NCBI GenBank assembly: GCA_963789635.1
Contig: CAWBLF010000003.1
Span: 204,364-268,363, forward strand
Direction: 5' to 3'
DNA length: 64,000 bases
DNA from: an uncultured bacterium
GTDB taxonomy: Bacteria > Patescibacteriota > Minisyncoccia > Phycocordibacterales > Zambryskibacteraceae
The notes below the pieces were generated by a model that had not been told where the DNA came from, did not search any database, and saw nothing but the letters and a program-made list of their open reading frames with translations. Positions 18,035 through 63,895 of the stretch are shown here, piece by piece. Within the stretch, counting starts at the first letter, position 1. Each line of letters starts with the position of its first letter. A program made the position numbers and the translations under genes.

Positions 18035-20359
18035 ATGAGACTTTATTCAGGATCTTCGACTCAGTTTTTGGATGATACTATCCATAACGAAATTGGTGAC
18101 AAACTTAAAGAGTCTTTTTTCCAATATTTTCGTTACCATCCTTCTCCCAACGAAGTACAATCTTGGAGAAATTCACTCAGAGCAGTATCACAAGTGTTTG
18201 AATATTCCAAACTTGATGACCACGGAGTTATTCTTGAATATCAACTTCCACAAACATCCAAACGTCTCGATTGCATGATAATGGGTAAAGACTTACATGG
18301 AAGTGACCGAGCAGTTATAATTGAGTTAAAGCAATGGGAAAAGTGTGAAGCTTCTGATGGAGAAAATGAAGTTTCAACATGGGTTGGTGGCGGAAAGAGA
18401 GAAGTACTACATCCATCTGTTCAGGTTGGACAATATAAAATGTATTTACAGGATTTACATCCTGCATTTGATGGTGGTAATGCTATTAAACTTGATGCAG
18501 TTTCGTATCTACACAACTACTCTCCTATAAAGAACGATGAATTACTTTCCTCAAAATTTACTGAAAAAATTAAAAATAATCCAATTTTTTGTGCGGATGG
18601 AGTGGACACTTTTAGTGAGTATCTTACGGCCAAGCTTTCAGCTGGTGGAGGGTTACCTATACTTGAGCGTGTTGAAAAAACAGAATATAAGGTGAGCAAG
18701 AAGCTCATGGATCACGTCAGTAAAACGATTAAGGAAAGAAGCGAATATGTACTAATTGACGAGCAACTTGTTGTATATGACAAGGTCATCTCCCTTGTTA
18801 AAAATCAACTTGGTAGCAAAAAGAAGTCAGTTGTAATAATTAGCGGTGGTCCAGGAACAGGGAAGTCAGTAATTGCAATCAATCTCATGGCAGATTTGTT
18901 GAGGTTGGGGTATGACACAAATTATGCTACTGGATCTAAGGCTTTTACAGAAACTCTAAGAAAAAAAATTGGTACACGTGGGGCCGTCCAGTTTAAGTAT
19001 TTTAATAGTTATATGAATTCTAGCAAAGACATTTTGGATGTCCTTATTGCTGACGAAGCACATCGCATTAGAGAGACTAGTAATAATAGGTTTACAAGAA
19101 AAGAAATGCGCTCAGACACCCCGCAAATTGAAGAACTAATAAAGGCGTCAAAAATCGGTGTATTTTTTATTGATGATAATCAAAATGTTCGTCCAAACGA
19201 AACAGGATCAGCAGAGTTTATAAAAGATACGGCAATAAAGATGGGTTGTGATGTTCACGAGTATGAGCTTGAGGCTCAGTTTAGATGCAGTGGTTCTGAC
19301 GCATTTGTAAACTGGGTAAACAATACATTGGGAATAAAACGCACAGCAAATGTCATTTGGGATCAAAAAGAAGAGTTTGACTTTCAAATTGTAGATTCCC
19401 CTCTAGAGCTATATTCAAAAATAAAACAAAAAAGTGATGAAAAAGCAGGTTCAGCCAGACTTGTAGCAGGTTTTTGCTGGCCATGGAGTAATCCAAATTC
19501 AGATGGAACATTAGTAAATGACGTTAAAATTGGTGACTTTCAAATGCCCTGGGAAGGTAAGGACGGGCACAAACTTGCTCCGGGAATACCCCCAGCTTCA
19601 CTATGGCCAAATGATCCAAACGGAGTCAACCAAATAGGTAGTATTTATACGATTCAAGGATTTGAATTTGATTATGTCGGGGTCATTATCGGCCCTGATC
19701 TTGTTTATAATTTTGACAATCAAACATGGATTGCATTAAGAGAAAAATCTGCTGACGGTGTTGTAAAACGTTCTGGAGAAAAACTTGAAGAACTTCTTAA
19801 AAATACATATAGAGTGCTTTTGACTCGAGGAATGAAGGGATGCTATGTATATTTTGTAGATAAAGAAACAGAGAAGTTTTTTAAAAGTAGAATTGAGGGA
19901 ACAAAATCAATGCCAACAATGGTAACTAAGAAGATACCTTCTCCTTTCACAATAGAAATGATTAGAGTTCCTTTGGTCGGATCTGCTCCATGTGGTAATC
20001 CACTTCTTGGCGAAGAGAATATTGAGGAATATATCGAAGTGGAAAAAAATAAAATAAAACCAGGTGCAAAGTATTTCATAGTTAGAGCAAGCGGAGATTC
20101 AATGAATAAGGCGGGAATTAATGATAATGATTTAGTTTTATGTCGTTATTCTGAAAAGGGTGAGACTGGTGATAAGGTGGTTGCTCTTCTTGGTGGTGAA
20201 AATGTAACGATAAAATATTATGACAAAAAGGACGGACGTAGGATTTTGTTACCAAAAAGTACTAATCCTATACATCAACCAATCATTCCAGAAGAAGGAG
20301 ATGTATTACAAGGTATTGTTCAAGAAGTTATAGTTAATCCAGGAGCAGATAATTTATGA
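18035..20359 (+). CDS. DUF2075-type nuclease/P-loop ATPase fused to a C-terminal LexA/UmuD-like S24 peptidase domain
   Basis: N-terminus ILEYQLPQTSKRLDCMIMG...AVIIELKQW (PD-(D/E)xK-like, typical DUF2075 start). Walker A GGPGTGKS, Walker B LIADEAHR, GCYVYFVD tail. C-terminus VPLVGSAPCGNP...RASGDSMNKAGI...VTIKYY. Confidence 0.75.
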   Translation: MRLYSGSSTQFLDDTIHNEIGDKLKESFFQYFRYHPSPNEVQSWRNSLRAVSQVFEYSKLDDHGVILEYQLPQTSKRLDCMIMGKDLHGSDRAVIIELKQWEKCEASDGENEVSTWVGGGKREVLHPSVQVGQYKMYLQDLHPAFDGGNAIKLDAVSYLHNYSPIKNDELLSSKFTEKIKNNPIFCADGVDTFSEYLTAKLSAGGGLPILERVEKTEYKVSKKLMDHVSKTIKERSEYVLIDEQLVVYDKVISLVKNQLGSKKKSVVIISGGPGTGKSVIAINLMADLLRLGYDTNYATGSKAFTETLRKKIGTRGAVQFKYFNSYMNSSKDILDVLIADEAHRIRETSNNRFTRKEMRSDTPQIEELIKASKIGVFFIDDNQNVRPNETGSAEFIKDTAIKMGCDVHEYELEAQFRCSGSDAFVNWVNNTLGIKRTANVIWDQKEEFDFQIVDSPLELYSKIKQKSDEKAGSARLVAGFCWPWSNPNSDGTLVNDVKIGDFQMPWEGKDGHKLAPGIPPASLWPNDPNGVNQIGSIYTIQGFEFDYVGVIIGPDLVYNFDNQTWIALREKSADGVVKRSGEKLEELLKNTYRVLLTRGMKGCYVYFVDKETEKFFKSRIEGTKSMPTMVTKKIPSPFTIEMIRVPLVGSAPCGNPLLGEENIEEYIEVEKNKIKPGAKYFIVRASGDSMNKAGINDNDLVLCRYSEKGETGDKVVALLGGENVTIKYYDKKDGRRILLPKSTNPIHQPIIPEEGDVLQGIVQEVIVNPGADNL

Positions 20360-22498: not shown

Positions 22499-25273
22499 AT
22501 GGACTCAAACTCATTTTCTACGGAGAGGCCTATAACCAATCCAACAGAAGAAAAAAATTTTATAAACCAAGAAGTCGCTCGTCGTGAGGCTATTCGGGTT
22601 TCTGAGGGTGTTCCGCATACTCGCGAAGAAGTCATCGGTGAGACATTGAAGGAATACAAACAAATCCCGTCAAATGAGATATTGCACAAGAGTATGGATG
22701 TCGGTGAGGATATCCACACAATCGTCGGTAATCTTTCTCCAGAGACTCACGACAGGAAGATAGCCGAACTTTTGAAAATTCTCAACACCAAAGGCATCAA
22801 AAATGTAATTTCCGTTATTGAAAAAATGGGCGACGAACATTTGGAGGATGATTTTCATCGTTTTCTCATCCAGTATGTAAAAAAGGGTATGGTCGTCAAA
22901 GGTCTACCGCCCAAAGCTCCCATTTCCAAGGCGCTCCATATGACGCTCTACGAAGTGGTGCTTCCCGAGGTAGACAAGGAAAAAAATCCAGAGCGATTGA
23001 AGGAGTTGGTTTCCGGTATGGAGCAATTTTACGCCGGTATGCTCTCTGTTTCTTCTGACAAAAATCCTGGCGAGCGACATATCGCTTTGGAAATTGTAAA
23101 TAGCAATGGCAGTGAATCAGTCGTATTTTATGTGGCGGTGCCAAATGAAAAGCGTGATTTGTTTGAAAAACAAATTGTTTCTGTTTTTCCCAACGCGCAT
23201 TTTAGTGAAGCCAGTGATGACCACAATATTTTCAACGAGGAGGGAGAATCGGCCGGCTCTGTGGCTGTCTCGGTAGGCAACCCCATTTTCCCGATACGCA
23301 CATATGATTCGTTTGACCATGACCCTATGAACGCGGTCATTCAGGGTTTTTCTAAACTGTCCAAGAATGGTGAGGGAGCTTGTCTTCAGATTTTGATCAA
23401 GCCGGCAGGGGATAGCTACACGAAGTCGTATCAAAAAGCGCTTGTCCAAATCGAAAAAGGTGTTCCGATAAATGAGGCCGCGCCGACCGGTATAGATGTC
23501 AAAGGCGCCATCTTCAGTATTGCCAAAGAAATTTTTTCGTCCGGCAAAAAGAAAGGTGACAAGGAATCCGAAAAGAAACCGCCAAGTCCGGTAGTCATCG
23601 ACGCCATTAACGAAAAAATTTCACGACCCATTACAAGCACCACGATCCGTCTGGTAACTTCGGGAGCATCCAAGGCGCGGGCAGAAGCCATCCTTTCTGA
23701 CCTGGAATCAAACTTTAATCAGTTCAATAATCCTCAAGGCAACTCACTTCGTTTCAACCGGTTCAAAGGAGGCCGACTGACCAAATTTTTCCGTAATTTT
23801 GCTTTTCGATCATACGACCAGACCGAGTCGATACCGCTCAATGTCAAAGAACTTTCCACATTGATGCATTTCCAGACAGGTCTTATAGAAGGGGCGTCTC
23901 AATTGAAGACGGCAAAGTCTGGTGATGCTCCGGCGCCGATGGATTTGCCAAGTGAAGGAACCTTGCTTGGAATAAACACGTACAGAGCCACGGACACAAA
24001 GGTGTTCATTACAGACGAAGACCGTTTGAGGCATATATATACCATCGGGCAGACCGGCACCGGTAAGACGACACTTCTCAAAAATATGATTATTCAGGAT
24101 ATAGAGAAGGGCAACGGCGCCTGCATGATTGACCCTCACGGTTCGGATATTCTCGATGTCTTGGCGCACGTGCCGCCGGAGAGACAAAAAGATGTCATTT
24201 ATTTTGACCCGTCTTACTCGGAGCGACCGATGGGTCTAAACATGCTTGAGTATGACCGCAGCAAACCCGAACAAAAGACTTTTGTGGTGAACGAACTTTT
24301 CAGTATTTTCCAGAAGCTTTACGGAGGCGTGCCGGAGTCTATGGGCCCGATGTTCGAACAATATTTCCGAAACGCCACGATGCTCGTAATTGAAGACCCG
24401 GATACTGGATGCACACTACTTGATGTGTCGCGGGTTATGTCAAACAAAGAATTTCGCCAGATGAAACTTTCGCACTGCAAAAATCCGATTGTTGTCCAAT
24501 TCTGGACGGAAATCGCCGAGAAAGCCGGCGGGGAAGGAGCGCTTGCCAATATCGTGCCTTACATCACCAGTAAGTTCGATGTTTTCTTGGCCAATGACAT
24601 CATGCGACCGATTATCGCGCAGGAAAAATCGGCATTCAATTTTCGCGATATCATGGATAACAAGAAAATTCTCCTCGTCAATCTTTCCAAAGGTCGTCTC
24701 GGTGATATCAACGCCAATCTCATCGGCCTCATACTTGTCGGCAAGATTTTGATGGCTGCGCTTTCGAGGGTGGATATCGTCGGCACAAATTTTGCGCCGT
24801 TTTATTTGTATATTGATGAATTTCAAAATATCACTACACCGTCGATATCTACTATTCTTTCCGAGGCACGCAAATACAAACTTTCACTTTTTATAGCCCA
24901 TCAGTTTATTGGCCAGCTTTCCGATGACATCAAGAACGCGGTGTTCGGTAATGTGGGCAACATGGTCGTGTATCGTGTCGGCGCTGACGATGCGGAATAT
25001 TTGGTCAAACAATTTGAACCGGTATTTACAGCTTCACAAATAATGAATATTGATAATTTCAACGCGCTTATAAAAATGTTGGTACACGGCAAGCCATCAA
25101 AACCCTTCAATATAAAAGCTATGCCATCCCCGCCTCCGACTGGCATTGATGTAGAAGCAGTAAAACAACTTTCATATCTTACATACGGCAGAAACAGAGA
25201 CGAGGTTCAGGCGGAAGTGATGAAGAAATATGAGAAATTGAAACCGCCAGAGTCACAATCCACGGCTTTATAA
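22499..25273 (+). CDS. TraD/VirD4-like (type IV coupling protein-like) FtsK/HerA-superfamily ATPase with a long unknown N-terminal region
   Basis: 924 aa; Walker A GQTGTGKTT, Walker B LYIDEFQN, RKYKLSLFIAHQ arginine-finger-like segment in the C-terminal half. Confidence 0.65.
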   Translation: MDSNSFSTERPITNPTEEKNFINQEVARREAIRVSEGVPHTREEVIGETLKEYKQIPSNEILHKSMDVGEDIHTIVGNLSPETHDRKIAELLKILNTKGIKNVISVIEKMGDEHLEDDFHRFLIQYVKKGMVVKGLPPKAPISKALHMTLYEVVLPEVDKEKNPERLKELVSGMEQFYAGMLSVSSDKNPGERHIALEIVNSNGSESVVFYVAVPNEKRDLFEKQIVSVFPNAHFSEASDDHNIFNEEGESAGSVAVSVGNPIFPIRTYDSFDHDPMNAVIQGFSKLSKNGEGACLQILIKPAGDSYTKSYQKALVQIEKGVPINEAAPTGIDVKGAIFSIAKEIFSSGKKKGDKESEKKPPSPVVIDAINEKISRPITSTTIRLVTSGASKARAEAILSDLESNFNQFNNPQGNSLRFNRFKGGRLTKFFRNFAFRSYDQTESIPLNVKELSTLMHFQTGLIEGASQLKTAKSGDAPAPMDLPSEGTLLGINTYRATDTKVFITDEDRLRHIYTIGQTGTGKTTLLKNMIIQDIEKGNGACMIDPHGSDILDVLAHVPPERQKDVIYFDPSYSERPMGLNMLEYDRSKPEQKTFVVNELFSIFQKLYGGVPESMGPMFEQYFRNATMLVIEDPDTGCTLLDVSRVMSNKEFRQMKLSHCKNPIVVQFWTEIAEKAGGEGALANIVPYITSKFDVFLANDIMRPIIAQEKSAFNFRDIMDNKKILLVNLSKGRLGDINANLIGLILVGKILMAALSRVDIVGTNFAPFYLYIDEFQNITTPSISTILSEARKYKLSLFIAHQFIGQLSDDIKNAVFGNVGNMVVYRVGADDAEYLVKQFEPVFTASQIMNIDNFNALIKMLVHGKPSKPFNIKAMPSPPPTGIDVEAVKQLSYLTYGRNRDEVQAEVMKKYEKLKPPESQSTAL

Positions 25274-28652: not shown

Positions 28653-28751
28653 AAAATCATTCAGAAAAATAATCCAAGGCGTAACCTTAAGCAAAAAGCA
28701 CGCATCTAGTCTATGTGTGTTTTTTCTTGTATGATTGAAAATAATCAGCCC

Positions 28752-31142
28752 ATGAAATCATACGATCCAGCAAAAATTGAAAAAAAATGGCAAAAAAAGT
28801 GGGAAAAAGAAAAGCTTTTTCACGCTGATAACAATTCAACTAAGCCCAAATACTATTCACTCATAGAGTTTCCATATCCGTCGGGTGACGGTCTGCACGT
28901 AGGTCACCCAAGGCCGTATATCGGCATGGATGTCATTTCACGTAAACGTCGGGCTGAGGGTTTTAATGTTTTGTATCCTATCGGCTGGGACGCCTTTGGA
29001 CTCCCTACTGAAAACTATGCCATCAAGACAGGTAAAGATCCTCGGGAGGTAACCAAAGAAAATACAGATACTTTTCGTAAACAAATCCAATCATTGGGTA
29101 TTTCGTTTGACTGGTCGCGGGAGATAAATACTACCGATCCGGAATATTATCGCTGGACCCAGTGGATGTTTTTGCAATTTTTGAAGGAAGGTTTGGCATA
29201 CAAAGCCAAGATACCTATCAACTGGTGTCCCAAAGACAAGATTGGCCTTGCCAACGAAGAGGTTGTAAACGGACGTTGCGAGCGATGCGGTACTCCAGTG
29301 GAAAAACGTGAAAAGGAGCAATGGATGATGGCTATTACCAAGTACGCCGACAGGCTGGATAAAGATCTTGATATGGTAGACTTTTTGCCACAAATTAAAC
29401 AACAGCAAAGAAATTGGATAGGGAAGAGCGATGGGGCAGAAATAAATTTTCAATTTTTGAACAACACCGACGGACGTCCGACGTCCGTCACGGTATTTAC
29501 CACCAGACCCGATACTATTTTTGGCGCCACTTTTGTCGCGGTATCTCCGGAGTTGGCAAAAACGTGGCTTGATAACGGCTGGTCGGCGGGTGACGAAATA
29601 AAAAAATATGTCAAAGAGACTGTCGATGAAAGACTCAAAGGGGGTTTTGAGGAAAAAGAGAAAAATGGAATAGCTACGGGATTTGGCGCTATCAATCCAG
29701 CCACAAAGGAGGAAATACCTGTTTGGATAGTCAATTACGTGCTCGGCGATGTAGGCACTGGTGCCATTATAGCTGTGCCTGCTCACGATGAACGTGATTT
29801 TGAATTTGCAAAGAAATATAATCTTCCGATTAAATATGTCGTAGCGCCATATTTCTTGGACAGCACAGAAAACAGTAAACCAAGGAGTGATGCTGAAACA
29901 AAAGATAGAACAATTGGTGTAGGAATTGTAAAACATTGGTCAGAAGATAAGTATTTGATGCTTAACTGGAAAAACGGTTGGACTGGATTTATTACTGGAG
30001 GGGTAGAATCCGGTGAGGATTTAGAGAAATCCATTATTCGTGAAATTCAAGAAGAAACTGGTTATACGAATGTTCGTTTTGTGCGCCACTTAGGTGGTCC
30101 GAATGTATCCGATTTTTATGCACCGCACAAAAAATTTAATCAGCATGTTTTCGGTTATGGGATGTACTTGGAGCTTGTTGATGACAAGCAAGAAATAGTG
30201 GCTGACGAAGAACACGCGAAGCATGAGGTTATTTGGGTTGAAAAAAAAGAAGTCCTTCCTTTTCTCAAGAAGGGTTCTCCTATGGGAGATTCACGATATT
30301 CAGAAATGTTTTGGGATAGATTCCAAACTGGTAATTTTGTTTGGACAGGAGATGGTACATTGCTGAATTCAGAGAAATTTGATGGAAAAACTTCTGAAGA
30401 GGCAAAAAAGGAAATTACATACTTTGTCGGAGGAAAAATGGTTACTCGATACAAACTTCGAGACTGGGTTTTTTCTCGACAGCGATATTGGGGTGAGCCG
30501 ATACCGGTCATACATTGTGAGAAATGCGGTATTGTGCCAGTTCCGGAAAAGGATTTGCCTGTAGAACTGCCAAAGGTTAAAAAATATGAGCCCACAGATA
30601 CTGGTGAGTCACCACTAGCCGCCATTGATAAATGGGTAAATGTGAAATGTCCAAAGTGTGGTGGCAATGCGAAACGTGAGACAGATACGATGCCACAATG
30701 GGCAGGTTCCTCCTGGTATTTTCTTCGTTATGCTGACCCAGAAAATAAGAAGGAATTTGCAAGTAAAGAAGCACTCAAATATTGGACACCGGTTGACTGG
30801 TATAACGGAGGGATGGAGCATACCACCCTTCACCTTTTGTATTCACGTTTTTGGAATAAATTTTTGTTTGACCAGGGATTGGTGCCGACATCAGAGCCTT
30901 ACAAAAAAAGAACCTCACACGGATTCATTCTTGGTGAAGGTGGAGAAAAAATGTCTAAATCTCGTGGCAACGTCATCAACCCCGATGATGTGGTGAAGCT
31001 ATATGGCGCCGATACTCTTCGAGTTTACGAAATGTTTATGGGTCCGTTTGAGCAGGCTATCGCGTGGTCAACCGAAAGTATTATCGGATCACGAAGGTTT
31101 TTGGAGAGGGTTTGGAAATTGCGACGAGCGAATAACAAATGA
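28752..31142 (+). CDS. leuS: leucyl-tRNA synthetase, main part (catalytic + CP1 editing + inserted Nudix domain)
   Basis: HVGHPRPY (HIGH), [12 protein letters not shown] and [13 protein letters not shown] (CP1), KMSKSRGN. Likely start is [13 protein letters not shown] at 28752. Ends at a TGA overlapping the next ATG. Confidence 0.9.
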
Positions 31143-31639
31143 CGACTTCGGCAGTATCAAAAGAGGAAAAAACAAAACTGGAATATCTTTTGAATCAGAC
31201 GATTCAAAAGGTGAGTGAAGACATTGAGTCGATGAGATTTAATACAGCTATATCCACCTTGATGATATTTGTAAATGAGTGTGATCGTCACGCCCTTATC
31301 CCATATTCCGTATTTGTCGGCTTTTTGAAAGTGTTAGCGCCATTTGCGCCCCATATTGCCGATGAACTATGGAGCGAGCTTGGTAATTCTGACACGATTC
31401 ATATGGCCGGCTGGCCAAAAGTAGATGCGGGAAAACTGACCTCTGGTACGACGACTATAGCCGTACAAATAAATGGCAAGACTCGGGCGGTCATGAACAC
31501 TCAAAGGGAAAGGGATGAGGCCACTATTATAGCTGAGGCAAAAGGTTTGGATGCAGTTAAAAAATGGATTGACGGCAAAAATATCGTAAAGACGATTTAT
31601 ATACCGGATCGTATCCTTAATATTGTTGTCGGTGAATAA
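31139..31639 (+). CDS. leuS: leucyl-tRNA synthetase, C-terminal anticodon-binding part (separate ORF or frameshift)
   Basis: [40 protein letters not shown] match the LeuRS C-terminus; frame -1 relative to the upstream part, ATGA junction. Confidence 0.85.
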
Positions 31640-45570: not shown

Positions 45571-46176
45571 ATGAAAATCGGACCAAAATACAAAATTGCG
45601 CGAAGACTGGGGGCTCCAATATTTGAGAAAACTGAAACTCAGAAATTTGCCCTATCTCAAGCTCGTAAAGAAAAGAGCGGAAAGAATTTTTCTCGCCCAA
45701 AATCCGAATTCGGTTTGCAGTTACTTGAAAGCAGAAAGCCAGGTCTACTTATGCGGTTACAGAAAAGCAATTTTCAAAATACGCCAGAAGCTCTGGCCAA
45801 AAACAGACAAGCATTGTCACGATTGTATTCTTCTCTTGAACTTAGATCCGACAACGTCGCGTATCGAGCAGGATTTGCGCCTACGCGTTTGGCGGCCAGA
45901 CAAATGGTTTCTCACGGCCACCTTTTGGTAAATGGCAAGCGCATAACGATCCCTTCCTATAGACTGAGCGAAGGTGATGTCTTGTCACAACGCGTGGCAA
46001 GCGCCAGTAAACCACTTTTTGCCTCTCTCAATGAGAGGGTGAAGGGTATGAATCATCCGGCTTGGCTTCGTTTTGATAAGGAAAAGAATTCTGCCACCGT
46101 CATAGCTATACCGAAGTATGAACCGTCGGATTCTTTGTTTGATATGAATGCCGTGTTGGAATTTTATAGTCGTTAG
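45571..46176 (+). CDS. rpsD: ribosomal protein S4 (ORF intact, but about 19 codons appear out of frame; see findings)
   Basis: SDNVAYRAGFAPTRLAARQMVSHGHLLVNGKRITIPSY, EFYSR end. The conserved EKQK..Y....EKQF motif is encoded in a different frame at 45729-45785. Confidence 0.9.
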   Translation: MKIGPKYKIARRLGAPIFEKTETQKFALSQARKEKSGKNFSRPKSEFGLQLLESRKPGLLMRLQKSNFQNTPEALAKNRQALSRLYSSLELRSDNVAYRAGFAPTRLAARQMVSHGHLLVNGKRITIPSYRLSEGDVLSQRVASASKPLFASLNERVKGMNHPAWLRFDKEKNSATVIAIPKYEPSDSLFDMNAVLEFYSR

Positions 46177-46226: not shown

Positions 46227-47191
46227 ATGTCAGACCATTCAATCATTTTGCCATCTAAACCAAAAATTGTTTCAGAGGACAAATTTGTTGGTAGTTATGA
46301 GATAGACGGATTGTATCCGGGATACGGACACACTCTGGGTAATTCGCTTCGCAGAATTATTTTGTCTTCACTTCCCGGGGCAGCCATAACTTCCGTAAAA
46401 ATTGCCGGAGTGGAACATGAGATTTTCTACGATTGCCGGAGTAAAAGAAGATGTCATCACTTTACTTTTGAATTTGAAAAAGATTCGTATCAAGATGCTC
46501 ACAGACGAACCTCAAACTCTGACAATCCACGCAAAAGGTATTGGTGAAGTAACTGCTGGCAATATAGAAGCTGTGGGGCAGATTGAAATTCTCAATCCGG
46601 ATTTGGTTATTGCCCATATCACGGAAAAAAGCACCGATCTTTCAATAGAAATGGTGGTGGAGCGGGGTATGGGATATGTTTCTCGCGCAAGTTTTACAAA
46701 AGAATCGCGTCGATGTGGGAGTTATTTCTTTGGACGCTATTTTTACTCCGATTCGACGCGTCAGTTATGAAGTTGAAAATATGCGTGTGGGTGATCGTAC
46801 CGATTTCAACCGTTTGAAAATATTTATTGAAACCGATGGCACTATAACAGCAAAGGAAGCATTGGAATCTTCGATTGAAATTATGATCAACCAGCTCAAG
46901 GCTATTGTCGGCTTCAAAGAACCTTCGGAAATTGTTGAATCTGCTGATACGAACAAATCGGAAAACAGTTCATCGAAAGCAGAAATTGATTCTGAAGTAT
47001 TAAAGACAAGGATTGAATCGATAAATCTATCGGCCAGAACGGTCAATGCTTTGATAGGTGGCAATATTCGAACAGTCGGAGGCCTTGCTCGCAAAAAGGA
47101 AAGAGACCTTCTTGATATAGATGGTCTGGGGGCAAAAGGTATTCAGGAAATTCGCACTGTTCTTGCCGGATTGGGTATTACTTTGAGATAA
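46227..47191 (+). pseudogene. rpoA: RNA polymerase alpha subunit, split over three frames (two +1 shifts)
   Basis: Frame 1 gives ...[25 protein letters not shown]. Frame 2 gives [19 protein letters not shown]...ERGMGYVSRA. Frame 3 gives VGVISLDAIFTPIRRVSYEVENMRVG...CTD. Confidence 0.85.
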
Positions 47192-47197
47192 ATTAAA

Positions 47198-47600
47198 ATG
47201 AGTTACCACAGAACAAAAAGGGCATTAAGCCGTAAGACAGGACAACGGAAAGCGCTTCTCAAAGCTCTTGCCGTGGCTTTGGTGATGGAGGAAAAGATTC
47301 AGACATCCGAACCAAAAGCCAAAGAATTGCGTCCATTCATCGAACGCTTGATTACTCAAGGTAAAAAAGGTAACGAGCTTGTATGCGTTTTATTGTGTGT
47401 TGTTTGTTTTCTTGATTGGAAAGGGTAACCTAGCTTCGTATCGCACCGTTATAAAATACATTGGTCCGGTAGCCGGAAAGAAGTTGTTTACCGATATTTC
47501 TCCTCGTTACAAGGATAGAAAAGGAGGATACACTCGCATTACAAAACTTATCGCCCGTAAAGGAGATGGAAGCGCCAGGGCATACATTGAGTTGGTTTAA
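47198..47600 (+). pseudogene. rplQ: ribosomal protein L17 interrupted by a 55-bp insertion
   Basis: N-part ...[20 protein letters not shown] and C-part NLASYRTV...[20 protein letters not shown]...YIELV, separated by 47375-47429, which shifts the frame. Confidence 0.8.
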
Positions 47601-60209: not shown

Positions 60210-61193
60210 ATGACAAACGAGGAGAAAATAATGCTTTCCGGGGTCCAACCGACAGGCAAACCGCATATCGCCAACTATTTCGGCGCAATGAAGCAGTTTG
60301 TTGATTTGCAGAATGAATACAAAAGTTATGTATTTATTGCTGACCTTCACGCTTTGACCAGTATTCAGAATCCCAAGGAAATGAGCAGTAACATTTTGAG
60401 TGTGGCCACTGATTATCTGGCAATTGGTTTGGACCCAAAGAAGACCACGATATACAAACAATCGGATGCACCACAAGTGGCCGAGTTGGCTTGGGTTTTT
60501 GAGTGTATTACCACAATGCCGTATCTTATGCGTGCCCACGCATTCAAGGACGCTTCGGCCAAGAACAGGGAAATCAATGTGGGAGTATACAACTATCCTA
60601 TGTTGATGGCTGCCGATATTCTCATACACGACCCCGATATTGTACCGGTTGGTCTGGACCAAAAGCAACATGTAGAAATTGCTCGGGACACGGCAGAAAA
60701 GTTTAATCGCATTTTCGGAGAAACTTTCAAGGTGCCAAAACCTCTGATAATGGAAAATGTTCAAACTATAGTTGGCACAGACGGACGAAAAATGAGTAAA
60801 AGCTACAAAAATACGATTGAGCTTTTTGCTTCGGACGAAGAAATAAAAAAAGCTGTAATGTCCATTGCCACAGATTCAAAGGGAGTAGATGAGGCAAAGG
60901 ATACAGAAAAAGATAATGTCTTCGCACTTCACAAATTATTCACCGAAGGACCAGAATTTGAAGAGCTCAAAGACCGATACGAATCAGGAGGCATTGGTTA
61001 CAAAGAATCAAAAGAAATTTTGATTAAAAATATTATCAAGTATGTGTCACCACTTCGCGATAAAAGAAAGAAGTTTGAGGATAATCCGGGTTTGGTCAAA
61101 GAAATTTTGACTGAAGGTGGTAAAAAAGCCAGAATTGAGGCCGAAGAAAAAATGGAAGAAATACGAGAAAAGGTTGGTACAAAATTGTCATGA
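60210..61193 (+). CDS. trpS: tryptophanyl-tRNA synthetase
   Basis: SGVQPTGKPHIANYFG, KMSKS; start at 60210 or 60231 (track start 60147 unlikely). Confidence 0.9.
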   Translation: MTNEEKIMLSGVQPTGKPHIANYFGAMKQFVDLQNEYKSYVFIADLHALTSIQNPKEMSSNILSVATDYLAIGLDPKKTTIYKQSDAPQVAELAWVFECITTMPYLMRAHAFKDASAKNREINVGVYNYPMLMAADILIHDPDIVPVGLDQKQHVEIARDTAEKFNRIFGETFKVPKPLIMENVQTIVGTDGRKMSKSYKNTIELFASDEEIKKAVMSIATDSKGVDEAKDTEKDNVFALHKLFTEGPEFEELKDRYESGGIGYKESKEILIKNIIKYVSPLRDKRKKFEDNPGLVKEILTEGGKKARIEAEEKMEEIREKVGTKLS

Positions 61194-62539
61194 AAAGAAC
61201 ACTAATAAAAGATCTCAACGAACATATTGGTAAAGAGGTAACCATTTCTGGATGGGTAAATATAAGACGCGACCAGGGTAAAATGGTCTTTTTTGATATG
61301 CGTGATATGTCAGGTTCCGTCCAGTGTGTTGCGTTACCAAGTCGTGTCCAGGTTATTGAAGTTGCAAAAGAATTTAGGTCAGAATGGGTTCTCAAGATTC
61401 AAGGTCTGGTAAATAAAAGACCGGAAAAAAATATCAGTGAAGGAATTCAAAACGGAAATATTGAAATTGAAGCCGTAAATATTGAAGTCCTTGCAAAATC
61501 TGAACCATTACCATTTGACATCTCACTCAACGGTTACAACCTAGATATTACTACAGAGCTAGACAATCGGGCACTCGTACTAAGACAGCCCAAAATCCAA
61601 GCAATTTTTAAAGTTCAAGAAACAATCATTGATTCCTTCAGAGAATTTATGAAACAGAATAGTTTCTTTGAATTTCAAGCTCCAGCAATTACACCAGCTA
61701 CCGCTGAGGGGGGGGCGGAAGTTTTTCAAATTGACTATTTTGGCAAAAAAGCTTTTTTGACCCAATCACCTCAGCTTTACAAACAAATCGTGATGTCGGC
61801 TTTTGAACGTTGTTTTTCCGTAAACAAAGTATTTCGGGCAGAGCCCTCTTCGACCACAAGACACCTTACAGAAGTGGTTTCGCTGGACGCTGAAATGGGT
61901 TTTATTGATTCATGGACCGACGTTCGCGATATGGCCGAAGAAACCGTGAGACATATGCTCAAGCAAGTTGAAACAAAAAACAGTGAACATCTAAAAATTC
62001 TGGCGCGACAGATCTCCTGTAATGATTGAAAAAACACCGAACACTCTCGCTTCGCGAGGTTCAACAAAAAATATTTGAGACATACGGGAGAGATGTTCGA
62101 GGAGAAAAGGATACCAATCCTCAAGACGAAAGGGAGATTTGTGAAATAGTAAAAAAGGAAACTGGTTCGGATTTTGTATTTATTTATGGTTACCCATCAC
62201 GCAAGAAACCTTTTTATGTTTATCCAAACCCAAAAGAACCAGAGTTTAATGAAGGTATGGATCTTATTTGTCGCGGGGTGGAGTGGCTTTCAGGAGGTAG
62301 AAGGGTTAATGATTATAATCAACTTCTGGAGCAAGTGAAGACTTGGAATATGGATCCAAATAAAATTACCATGTTTCTTCAAGCCTTTAAATATGGTGTG
62401 CCTCCTGAAGGCGGTTTTGCGCTTGGGGCTGAGCGAATAACCATGCAAATTTTGGAGTTGAAAAATATTCGTGAGGCTTCGAATATTTCCACGTGATATG
62501 AATCGGATTGATGAGAGGTTAAATAGTGATGGATTTTAG
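61190..62539 (+). pseudogene. aspS: aspartyl-tRNA synthetase (archaeal/type-2-like) with several frame disruptions
   Basis: OB-fold N-terminus, FRAEPS motif 2, GGFALGAERI motif 3. Frame changes occur around 62005-62040. The conserved end IFPRDMNRI is in frame +1 from about 62482. Confidence 0.8.
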
Positions 62540-62541
62540 TA

Positions 62542-63316
62542 ATGGATGAAATTGATTTTTAAATCAAAACTGAGACGTTTGAAGGGCCACTTGAGCTTCT
62601 GCTTTCTCTTATAGAAAAACGCAAACTGTTTATCAATGACATTTCACTGGCCCAAGTAGCAGATGATTATATAGAACACATTCACAAACAAACGGAGTTT
62701 CCGATGGGGATGACCGCGCATTTTATTCTCATTGCATCCACACTTCTTCTTATAAAATCAAAATGTCTTTTGCCATCGCTCGATTTGACCGAGGATGAGG
62801 AAGGAAGCATTGAGGATTTGGAAGGTAGGCTTAAAGATGTATCAAAAAGTACGGGATGTTTCAAAACAGTTGGAAAAGATTTTTGGAAAAGAAATAATTT
62901 TTTCAAAAAACAGAGAGAAAAACATTACCCCGGTATTTTCTCCAACCGATCAGTTGCAAACACTCAATATTCTTGAATCTATGAAAAGGGTGATTAACTC
63001 ATTACCCAAGATCGAATTTCTCCCGAAAGTGGTCGTCAAAAAAATTGTAAGTTTGGAAGAAATGATTGACCGTCTGACTGAAAGAGTAAAATCAAATCTC
63101 AAAATGAATTTTAGTGAGTTCGCCAAGACGCAAGGAGAAGCAAAATCAAAAGGAGCAAGTCACAAAGCCAATAAAGCCGATAAAGTGGCTATTATTGTGA
63201 GTTTCTTGGCTATGCTTGAATTAGTAAAGCAAGGACTCATAAACGTTCATCAAGAAAATTTTTCCGAGGATATCTCTATGGAAACTCAAAATTTTGAGGT
63301 TCCAAATTATCACTAA
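62542..63316 (+). pseudogene. scpA: segregation/condensation protein ScpA with an in-frame TAA and a +1 frameshift
   Basis: MDEIDF-TAA(62560-62562)-IKTETFEGPLELLLSLIEKRK...; frame changes at about 62836 (..EDLEGRLK / MYQKVRDVSKQLE..). Confidence 0.8.
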
Positions 63317-63338
63317 ATTTGTTAGAGTTCAAAGCACT

Positions 63339-63895
63339 ATGGAAATTTCAGATGACAAAAAAATTGAAGCGATTCTATTTTTTCGCGGTGAAGTGACCTC
63401 GATTGACGATTTGGTCAGATACACGGGAAAGTCAAAAAGCGAGGTGGAATCGGCTATCAAAACTCTAAGTGAGAAGCTTACCGATAGGGGACTATGCTTG
63501 GTACAGGCTCGGCGGGGTGTTATGCTTGGGACCGCGCCGGATTTGAGCCCTGTTATTGAGCAAATTGCAAAAGATGAGCTTTCTAGGGATATTGGCCGGG
63601 CAGGGCTTGAAACGCTTGCTATAGTGCTATATAAAGGCTTTGCGAGCAAGCGTGAGATAGACTACATCCGTGGGGTGAATTCGGGCTTTATTTTGAGAAA
63701 TCTTCTGTAATCAGGGGGTTAATCAACAGGGAAGAAAGAGAGGGAGAAAGAGGGTGCATATACACACCAACTATCGACCTTTTGTCGCATATGGGGATTT
63801 CAAAAACCTCTATGTACCCGAATTTGAGTCCATGGAAAACGAACTTAAAAATTTTTTGAAAAAGTCAGCCGATGAACCGACCGAAAACCAATGAT
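63339..63895 (+). pseudogene. scpB: segregation/condensation protein ScpB with two -1 frameshifts
   Basis: KKIEAILFF...IDYIRGVNSGFILRNLL, then VIRGLINREE...IYTPTIDLLSHMGIS in frame -1 (from about 63707), then LYVPEFESMENELKNFL in a further -1 frame (A5 run 63802-63806). Confidence 0.75.

What the first reader, a model, noticed from the sequence alone, without database searches (positions are those of the whole stretch)
45727..45789. Hidden compensated frameshift inside ribosomal protein S4
The annotated rpsD ORF is uninterrupted, but it reads LLESRKPGLLMRLQKSNFQNTPEALAK across 45727-45789.

The frame starting at 45729 reads KQKARSTYAVTEKQFSKYA. This is the universally conserved S4 motif; compare B. 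subtilis [20 protein letters not shown].

Entry into this frame needs one base fewer in gaaag (45727-45731). Return to the main frame needs one extra base (or two fewer) near 45786.

So ~19 codons of a highly conserved rRNA-binding segment are out of frame without creating a stop. An ORF caller would never flag this. It also explains the long alternative-frame ORF at 45596-45931 as a by-product of the region.
Basis: partly seen in the sequence, partly recalled or inferred. Interest (0 to 1): 0.55.

Follow-up and report, generated by a model that had tools for sequence, protein, structure and literature searches.

The report
Compensated frameshift artefact in rpsD
The ribosomal protein S4 gene of this Paceibacteria (candidate phyla radiation) metagenome-assembled genome does carry a hidden, self-cancelling frameshift that scrambles about 20 conserved residues, but it sits in a patch of indel damage that also breaks rpoA and rplQ, so it is almost certainly a sequence or assembly error.

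Summary
rpsD (45571-46176) stays open, but 45729-45785 encodes the conserved S4 motif KQKARSTYAVTEKQFSKYA in another frame. Reading that frame raises the profile scores by about 30 bits.

The two closest relatives (87% and 79% DNA identity, same gene order) show what is missing from the window:
- one base at about 45730;
- two bases at 45786 (a Lys codon);
- three more bases, in frame, at about 45803.

None of the other 119 listed S4 homologues carries the shifted peptide. Substitutions against relatives are synonymous in the hidden frame (6:1 and 9:2) and not in the annotated frame (1:5 and 1:9). The shift is therefore younger than nearly all of that divergence.

It is not an isolated event. 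Within the next 1.7 kb, rpoA has two uncompensated +1 insertions, and rplQ holds 55 extra bases made of a degraded duplicate plus GT-rich junk. The other 16 kb covered by relatives is clean. A second patch (61.99-63.72 kb) damages a class II aminoacyl-tRNA synthetase, scpA and scpB.

Verdict: patchy sequence or assembly error in a public genome assembled from a metagenome, not biology. The true protein is most likely a canonical 203-residue S4. Low interest, apart from quality control.

The parts
45571..46176 (+). rpsD (ribosomal protein uS4) as an ORF caller sees it: 201 aa, uninterrupted.
   Evidence: It matches NCBIfam NF003717 and Pfam PF01479. It is identical to the public protein P0001. 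It sits in the infA-rpsM-rpsK-rpsD-rpoA-rplQ-rplM-rpsI order shared with L001 and L002.
45727..45732 (+). Entry lesion. One base is missing from an A run: the window reads GAA-AGC, whereas relatives read GAA AAA C(AA).
   Evidence: DNA alignments to L001 and L002. A TGA at 45726-45728 in the motif frame pins the switch to 45729 or later.
45729..45785 (+). Nineteen codons whose ancestral frame is offset from the annotated one. They encode KQKARSTYAVTEKQFSKYA, the conserved rRNA-binding N-terminal motif of S4. The annotated frame reads SRKPGLLMRLQKSNFQNTP here.
   Evidence: Codon differences against L001 are 6 synonymous to 1 non-synonymous in this frame, and 1 to 5 in the annotated frame. Against L002 they are 9 to 2 and 1 to 9.
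45786..45787 (+). Return lesion. Two bases of a Lys codon are missing: the window reads GCC A|GAA, relatives read GCN AAA GAR. This restores the annotated frame.
   Evidence: Relatives read FSKYAKEALAK.
45802..45805 (+). Third lesion, an in-frame 3-base deletion. Relatives read AAA AAA GAT AGA (KKDR); the window reads AAA AAC AGA (KNR). This accounts for 201 aa against 203 aa.
46422..46422 (+). Extra base in rpoA (GAG-A-TTTT), the first uncompensated +1 frameshift.
   Evidence: RpoA of L001, residues 1-65, maps to 46227-46421 in one frame. Residues 66-158 map to 46423-46701 in the next frame.
46688..46701 (+). Second uncompensated +1 insertion in rpoA, at about 46691. rpoA is left as three ORFs: 46227-46547, 46402-46770 and 46676-47191.
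   Evidence: Relatives have one 320-aa rpoA.
47375..47420 (+). Junk insertion in rplQ, 55 net extra bases. It consists of a degraded copy of GGTAACCTAGCTTCGTATCG (two deletions, two substitutions), then a unique GT-rich 35-mer (47385-47419), then the good copy. It splits L17 into two ORFs.
   Evidence: The 35-mer occurs only once in the window.

Best explanation
The deposited sequence of this Paceibacteria/Patescibacteria metagenome-assembled genome contains patches of indel errors. One patch (45.73-47.42 kb) runs through rpsD, rpoA and rplQ.

In rpsD the errors happen to be a 1-base and a 2-base deletion 55 nt apart, followed by a 3-base deletion. Together they remove 6 bases. The ORF stays open, and gene callers emit a 201-aa S4 in which the true 20 residues (KQKARSTYAVTEKQFSKYAK) are replaced by 19 residues of wrong-frame text.

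The organism most likely makes a canonical 203-aa S4. Nothing functional is encoded by the shift.

Shown here: the hidden frame is the ancestral, selected frame; the lesions are unique to this record; and they cluster with lethal-looking lesions in neighbouring essential genes. Inferred: the lesions arose during sequencing, assembly or polishing rather than in the cell. One possibility is a low-coverage or unpolished stretch, or a filled gap.
For: 1. Reading the hidden frame adds about 30 bits against three independent S4 profiles. It also gives a full-length alignment to solved uS4 structures.

2. L001 (87.4% DNA identity over 8.3 kb, same gene order) and L002 (about 79%) define the -1, -2 and -3 lesions.

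3. Of the 120 listed S4 homologues, 118 match the motif pattern E[KR]Q[KR].R..Y. P0045 has the conservative variant EKQKAKYTY. Only the window's own product has the shifted words. P0001 is a singleton seen on one contig.

4. Differences from relatives within the segment are synonymous in the hidden frame (6:1 and 9:2) and non-synonymous in the annotated frame (1:5 and 1:9). Across rpsD, rpoA and rplQ, 76-88% of mismatches fall at third positions of the ancestral frames, the same as in intact neighbours. So there has been no period of relaxed selection and no selection in the new frame.

5. rpoA is cut into three frames and rplQ into two. Each piece is 95-97% identical to L001.

6. The rplQ lesion is an error-laden duplicate followed by GT-rich junk, which looks like a bad join or a bad read end.

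7. All six lesions in the 17.9 kb covered by relatives fall within 1.7 kb (scan statistic about 4e-5). The other genes give single full-length matches.

8. A second patch (61.99-63.72 kb) has at least four indels in a class II aminoacyl-tRNA synthetase that is a continuous 446-448 aa ORF in 12 relatives. It also has frameshifts in scpA and scpB. leuS is probably split as well.

A free-living cell cannot carry broken rpoA, rplQ and synthetase genes as its majority genotype.
Against: No reads, quality values or assembly metadata were available, so the error was not observed directly.

The indels are not simple homopolymer-length errors. The two rpoA insertions are non-homopolymer bases placed in front of TTTT. 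A8 and T8 runs inside genes covered by relatives are intact. No specific sequencing platform is therefore implicated.

No independent assembly of the same species was found that shows the intact gene.
Confidence: 0.87

Rival explanations
1. A genuine, very recent pair of compensating frameshift mutations, plus an in-frame deletion, in the living population. The organism would then really make an S4 with 19 unrelated residues in its N-terminal rRNA-binding region.
For: The net change is a multiple of three and the ORF is intact. The lesions lie in A-rich sequence where replication slippage is plausible. Compensated frameshifts are known to occur in protein evolution (general knowledge, not tested here).
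Against: No relative shares the shift. The substitution pattern shows no evolution in the new frame. The segment is the most conserved part of the S4 N-terminal domain: the Pfam score falls below its cut-off when the segment is shifted. The same 1.7 kb also holds uncompensated frameshifts in rpoA and rplQ, which cannot be tolerated. Accepting this lesion as real while calling its neighbours artefacts is not parsimonious.
Confidence: 0.08
2. Programmed recoding. The ribosome would shift -1 at about 45729 and +1 at about 45786, or RNA polymerase would slip, so that canonical S4 is made from the shifted DNA. rpoA and rplQ would be rescued in a similar way.
For: Translational 'correction' of indels by frameshifting is documented in some bacteria (review PMC5009743, found). 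The entry site lies in an A-rich stretch.
Against: Read directly from the sequence, there is no X XXY YYZ slippery heptamer in the zero frame at CTT GAA AGC. There is no prfB-like +1 site at GCC AGA AGC. There is no homopolymer of 7 or more bases for transcriptional slippage, since the run is A3. Relatives have no shift at any of these sites, so nothing is conserved. At least five independent events in three adjacent essential genes would each need high efficiency. The rplQ lesion is a 55-nt junk insertion that no frameshift can repair.
Confidence: 0.02
3. The annotated frame is correct and the S4-like motif in the other frame is coincidence.
For: The annotated ORF is open and still passes the NCBIfam S4 cut-off.
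Against: The hidden peptide is 18/19 identical to the nearest orthologue. It gives a gain of about 30 bits in three profiles. The DNA is collinear with relatives apart from the indels.
Confidence: 0.005

Closest known systems
Indel errors in draft or metagenome-assembled genomes that split or silently corrupt genes
   Same: The lesion is unique to one record. The indels are clustered and of both signs. Adjacent essential genes are broken, and junk sequence sits at a probable join. Purifying-selection signatures in the original frames are intact.
   Different: Here two of the errors cancel within 57 nt. No stop appears, so neither an ORF caller nor a pseudogene flag reveals the problem. The only symptom in the public protein is the missing PF00163 domain hit.
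Evolutionarily fixed compensatory frameshift pairs in protein-coding genes
   Same: The geometry is the same: a -1 indel and a -2 indel a few tens of bases apart, leaving a short stretch of novel peptide inside an otherwise conserved protein.
   Different: Fixed pairs are shared by a clade, and later substitutions respect the new frame. Here the shift is a singleton and substitutions respect the old frame.
Programmed ribosomal frameshifting (prfB +1, dnaX -1) and transcriptional slippage rescue of indels
   Same: A conserved protein sequence continues in another frame.
   Different: There is no slippery site, no long homopolymer and no conservation of the shift in relatives. Two opposite shifts would be needed within 57 nt.
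Bacterial ribosomal protein uS4 (rpsD) in the rpsM-rpsK-rpsD-rpoA-rplQ (alpha) operon
   Same: The gene order is the same. After repair both Pfam domains are present and the protein is about 96% identical to the nearest relative's S4 outside the lesions.
   Different: As deposited, residues 54-72 are wrong-frame text and the protein is two residues short.

Membership tests
Bacterial ribosomal protein uS4 (rpsD) | N-terminal Ribosomal_S4 domain (PF00163) above the curated cut-off | tested here: met
   The repaired protein scores 46.9 bits against a cut-off of 23. The annotated protein fails at 17.5 bits.
Bacterial ribosomal protein uS4 (rpsD) | C-terminal S4 RNA-binding domain (PF01479) and a full-length equivalog match | tested here: met
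   PF01479 scores 64.6 bits. NF003717 scores 182.8 bits (repaired) or 149.9 bits (annotated) against a cut-off of 116. The repaired protein aligns over its full length to solved uS4 chains.
Bacterial ribosomal protein uS4 (rpsD) | Position in the rpsM-rpsK-rpsD-rpoA-rplQ gene order | tested here: met
Programmed ribosomal frameshift or transcriptional slippage site | A slippery heptamer, a +1 shift-prone site, or a homopolymer of about 7 bases or more at the shift point | tested here: not met
   The sequence at 45722-45735 is TACTTGAAAGCAGA and at 45780-45792 is TACGCCAGAAGCT. Neither contains any of these elements.
Programmed ribosomal frameshift or transcriptional slippage site | The shift is conserved in orthologues | tested here: not met
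   L001 and L002 are unshifted. None of the other 119 listed homologues carries the shifted peptide.
Evolutionarily fixed compensatory frameshift | Both indels are shared by related lineages | tested here: not met
   The product is a singleton cluster seen on one contig. The relatives are canonical.
Evolutionarily fixed compensatory frameshift | Substitutions after the event are constrained in the new frame | tested here: not met
   The synonymous to non-synonymous counts are 6:1 and 9:2 in the old frame, against 1:5 and 1:9 in the annotated frame.
Sequence or assembly indel artefact | Co-occurrence with other lesions that would be lethal if real, clustered in patches | tested here: met
   Lesions in rpoA (two) and rplQ lie within 1.7 kb, and the surrounding 16 kb is clean. 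A second patch lies at 61.99-63.72 kb.
Sequence or assembly indel artefact | Reads or an independent assembly contradict the deposited bases | not testable with these tools
   No reads are available. Exact-pattern scans of genome and metagenome contigs found no second copy.

The most novel reading that the evidence does not exclude
The S4 lesion is real while its neighbours are artefacts. A candidate-phyla-radiation bacterium would then live with an S4 whose most conserved N-terminal rRNA-contacting stretch (EKQKxRxxYGxxExQF) has been replaced by 19 unrelated residues through a very recent compensated frameshift. That would imply unexpected tolerance at the S4-16S rRNA assembly interface.
Probability: 0.04. 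Interest if true: 0.6.

Novelty: not a real feature. Interest (0 to 1): 0.1.

Why it matters
As biology it does not matter. The organism almost certainly has an ordinary S4.

As data quality it is a useful cautionary case. A compensated frameshift leaves no stop codon, so the corrupted protein has entered public protein collections as a normal-looking S4 (P0001). It would distort alignments and marker-gene phylogenies that use S4. The same contig also carries broken rpoA, rplQ, synthetase, scpA and scpB genes.

A simple symptom flags such cases: loss of an expected domain hit in a universally conserved protein, together with a profile match in another frame.

Tried and rejected
- Exact look-ups of the window's S4 product among indexed contigs returned nothing. 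The source record and its neighbours could therefore not be fetched.
- An exact 45-mer across the entry site gave no hit in the GTDB species-representative genomes. A gapped pattern that accepts either the shifted or the repaired form gave no hit in the JGI metagenome contigs. No independent copy of this species was found.
- A protein search with the 166-aa C-terminal leuS ORF returned mostly contig-end fragments. It settled natural split versus frameshift only indirectly, through fragments that read continuously across the junction.
- Two literature searches gave background only. I used the recoding review PMC5009743 for the criteria.
- The idea that ORF 45596-45931 is a by-product of the shift was rejected, because it is in a different frame.
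- Platform-specific homopolymer error was rejected as a sufficient cause. A8 and T8 runs inside genes covered by relatives are intact, and the rpoA insertions are not homopolymer extensions.

Full report
**What is in the sequence**

The ORF 45571-46176 (+) is open for 201 codons and reads ...EFGLQLLESRKPGLLMRLQKSNFQNTPEALAKNRQALS.... The frame that starts at 45729 directly follows a TGA at 45726-45728. It reads KQKARSTYAVTEKQFSKYA and then runs on to a stop at about 45837.

That ORF lies in the remaining third frame.

**Is it more than chance?**

I spliced the hidden-frame peptide into the protein and scored both versions against curated profiles:
- Pfam PF00163 (S4 N-terminal domain) rises from 17.5 bits, which is below its 23-bit cut-off, to 46.9 bits.
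- NCBIfam NF003717 rises from 149.9 to 182.8 bits.
- TIGR01017 rises from 134.6 to 164.8 bits.

The repaired protein aligns end to end with solved uS4 chains, including lql.EKQKAR.Y.V.EKQF.Y..EA.

That the wrong frame stays open is not surprising. In this window's own genes, 32% of 20-codon stretches in that offset lack a stop.

**Relatives**

A search of 5.8 billion protein clusters returned the exact 201-aa product as a singleton from one 269,280-bp NCBI/ENA contig (P0001). It is the only one of the 120 listed hits without a PF00163 annotation.

The nearest homologues are P0002 (87%) and P0003 (82%). Both are 203 aa and read LLEKQKARFTYAVTEKQFSKYAKEALAKKDRQALS.

Of the 120 listed hits, 118 match E[KR]Q[KR].R..Y and one has the conservative variant EKQKAKYTY. 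Only the window's own product contains the shifted words.

**DNA-level anatomy**

The contigs encoding P0002 (L001) and P0003 (L002) share the window's gene order, from the alanyl-tRNA-synthetase-like gene through infA, rpsM, rpsK, rpsD, rpoA, rplQ, rplM, rpsI, grpE, dnaK and dnaJ. L001 is 87.4% identical over 8.3 kb.

Alignment shows three deletions in the window within 75 nt:
- One base from GAA AAA C (window GAA-AGC, 45727-45732).
- Two bases of a Lys codon (window GCC A|GAA at 45786; relatives GCN AAA GAR).
- An in-frame triplet at about 45802-45805 (KKDR becomes KNR).

The total is -6 bases, which matches 201 aa against 203 aa.

**Which frame has selection acted on?**

Within 45729-45785, codon differences from L001 are 6 synonymous to 1 non-synonymous in the hidden frame, but 1 to 5 in the annotated frame. 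Against L002 the counts are 9 to 2 and 1 to 9.

Gene by gene, 76-88% of mismatches in rpsD, rpoA and rplQ fall on third positions of the ancestral frames, as in intact neighbours.

The shift is therefore younger than essentially all of the roughly 12% divergence from L001. It is either very recent or not biological at all.

**Context decides the cause**

tblastn of L001's proteins against the window shows the following (confirmed with L002):
- RpoA is broken into three frames: residues 1-65 at 46227-46421, residues 66-158 at 46423-46701, and residues 154-320 at 46688-47188. Each piece is 96-97% identical.
- L17 is broken into two: residues 1-59 at 47198-47374 and residues 57-115 at 47421-47597.

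The rpoA lesions are single extra bases at 46422 and about 46691.

The rplQ lesion is 55 extra bases. It starts with a degraded copy of GGTAACCTAGCTTCGTATCG carrying two deletions and two substitutions. A unique GT-rich 35-mer follows, and then the good copy. This is the signature of a bad join or a bad read end.

Every other gene in the 17.9 kb covered by relatives gives one full-length match. Six lesions confined to 1.7 kb of that span has a scan probability of about 4e-5.

**A second patch**

Near the window's 3' end, a class II aminoacyl-tRNA synthetase is a continuous 446-448 aa ORF in 12 Paceibacteria/Nomurabacteria relatives. In the window it passes through frames 2, 1, 0 and 1 within about 50 nt, as EHLKIL | GAT.L | PVMIEKTP | TLSLREV. 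It then changes frame again for its last 18 residues.

scpA and scpB each show a frame switch as well.

leuS is split into 809 + 166 aa at about 31140. Relatives' fragments read straight through that junction.

A8 and T8 runs inside genes covered by relatives are not shifted. The errors are therefore patchy rather than homopolymer-driven.

**Mechanism**

The best explanation, which I put at about 0.87, is local sequence, assembly or polishing error in a genome assembled from a metagenome. In rpsD the errors happen to sum to a multiple of three, so the damage is invisible to ORF callers.

A real compensated frameshift (about 0.08) would need this lesion to be genuine while its immediate neighbours in rpoA and rplQ are not. 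It would also place unrelated residues in the best-conserved stretch of the S4 N-terminal domain.

Programmed recoding (about 0.02) is disfavoured for four reasons:
- There is no slippery heptamer, no +1 site and no long homopolymer at either junction.
- Nothing is conserved in relatives.
- Several independent shifts would each need to be efficient.
- The rplQ junk insertion cannot be repaired by any shift.

The criteria come from the recoding review PMC5009743.

Coincidence is excluded.

**Comparison with what is known, and novelty**

The gene is an ordinary member of bacterial uS4 in the alpha-operon context. The lesion resembles evolutionary compensatory frameshift pairs in geometry only. 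It fails both of their defining tests, namely sharing by relatives and constraint in the new frame.

It belongs with indel artefacts of draft assemblies. It is not a real biological feature. Its only value is as a quality-control example, because the corrupted S4 is in public protein collections and would perturb marker-gene analyses.

**Not resolved**

No reads, qualities or assembly metadata were available. No independent assembly of the same species was found. The artefact is therefore inferred, not observed.

Noticed in passing
window 46227-47191: rpoA is split into three ORFs (46227-46547, 46402-46770, 46676-47191) by single extra bases at 46422 and about 46691. Each piece is 96-97% identical to the intact 320-aa RpoA of relative L001.
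   Followed up: yes
window 47198-47600: rplQ (L17) is split by 55 extra bases at 47375-47420. These consist of an error-laden duplicate of the following 20 nt plus a unique GT-rich 35-mer (GCGTTTTATTGTGTGTTGTTTGTTTTCTTGATTGG). It looks like a mis-join or a poor read end.
   Followed up: yes
window 61190-62536: A class II aminoacyl-tRNA synthetase (Asn/Asp type) is a continuous 446-448 aa ORF in 12 relatives. Here it carries at least three indels within about 50 nt (61995-62045, frames 2, 1, 0, 1) and another near 62482.
   Followed up: yes
window 62533-63856: scpA switches frame (62533-62943 against 62831-63313) and scpB switches frame (63318-63716 against 63707-63856) relative to the proteins of L004 and L005. 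Both belong to the same roughly 1.7-kb damaged patch as the synthetase.
   Followed up: partly
window 28713-31639: leuS is split into 809 aa + 166 aa with an ATGA overlap at 31139-31142. Relatives' LeuRS fragments read continuously through RRFLEKVWRL...TIKKVSEDIE, so this is probably another frameshift. A few other assemblies also have short stand-alone C-terminal pieces, for example P0166 from a Kaiserbacteria genome.
   Followed up: partly
window 28713-31142 (LeuRS residues 400-516): Pfam reports a NUDIX domain (E = 1.9e-13) inserted in LeuRS just after the editing domain. That is an unusual domain combination for a leucyl-tRNA synthetase.
   Followed up: no
window 45744-45746: Within the hidden S4 motif the window has Ser (TCT) where all 11 aligned relatives have Phe or Tyr (ARFTY/ARYTY). 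This is either a real substitution or one more base error in the patch.
   Followed up: no
window 18035-20359: A 774-aa protein combines a Schlafen group 3 DNA/RNA helicase domain (E = 5e-91) with a C-terminal S24 (LexA-like) peptidase domain. It may be a defence or stress-sensing fusion.
   Followed up: no
window 22499-25273: A 924-aa protein has weak matches to the TraG/VirD4/TrwB type IV coupling protein families. This hints at a conjugation-type or DNA-transfer ATPase in this small genome.
   Followed up: no
window 45596-45931: This 111-aa ORF overlaps rpsD but lies in the third frame, which is neither the annotated frame nor the hidden S4 frame. Many such shadow ORFs of 100 aa or more occur in the window, and I found nothing to suggest it is a gene.
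   Followed up: partly
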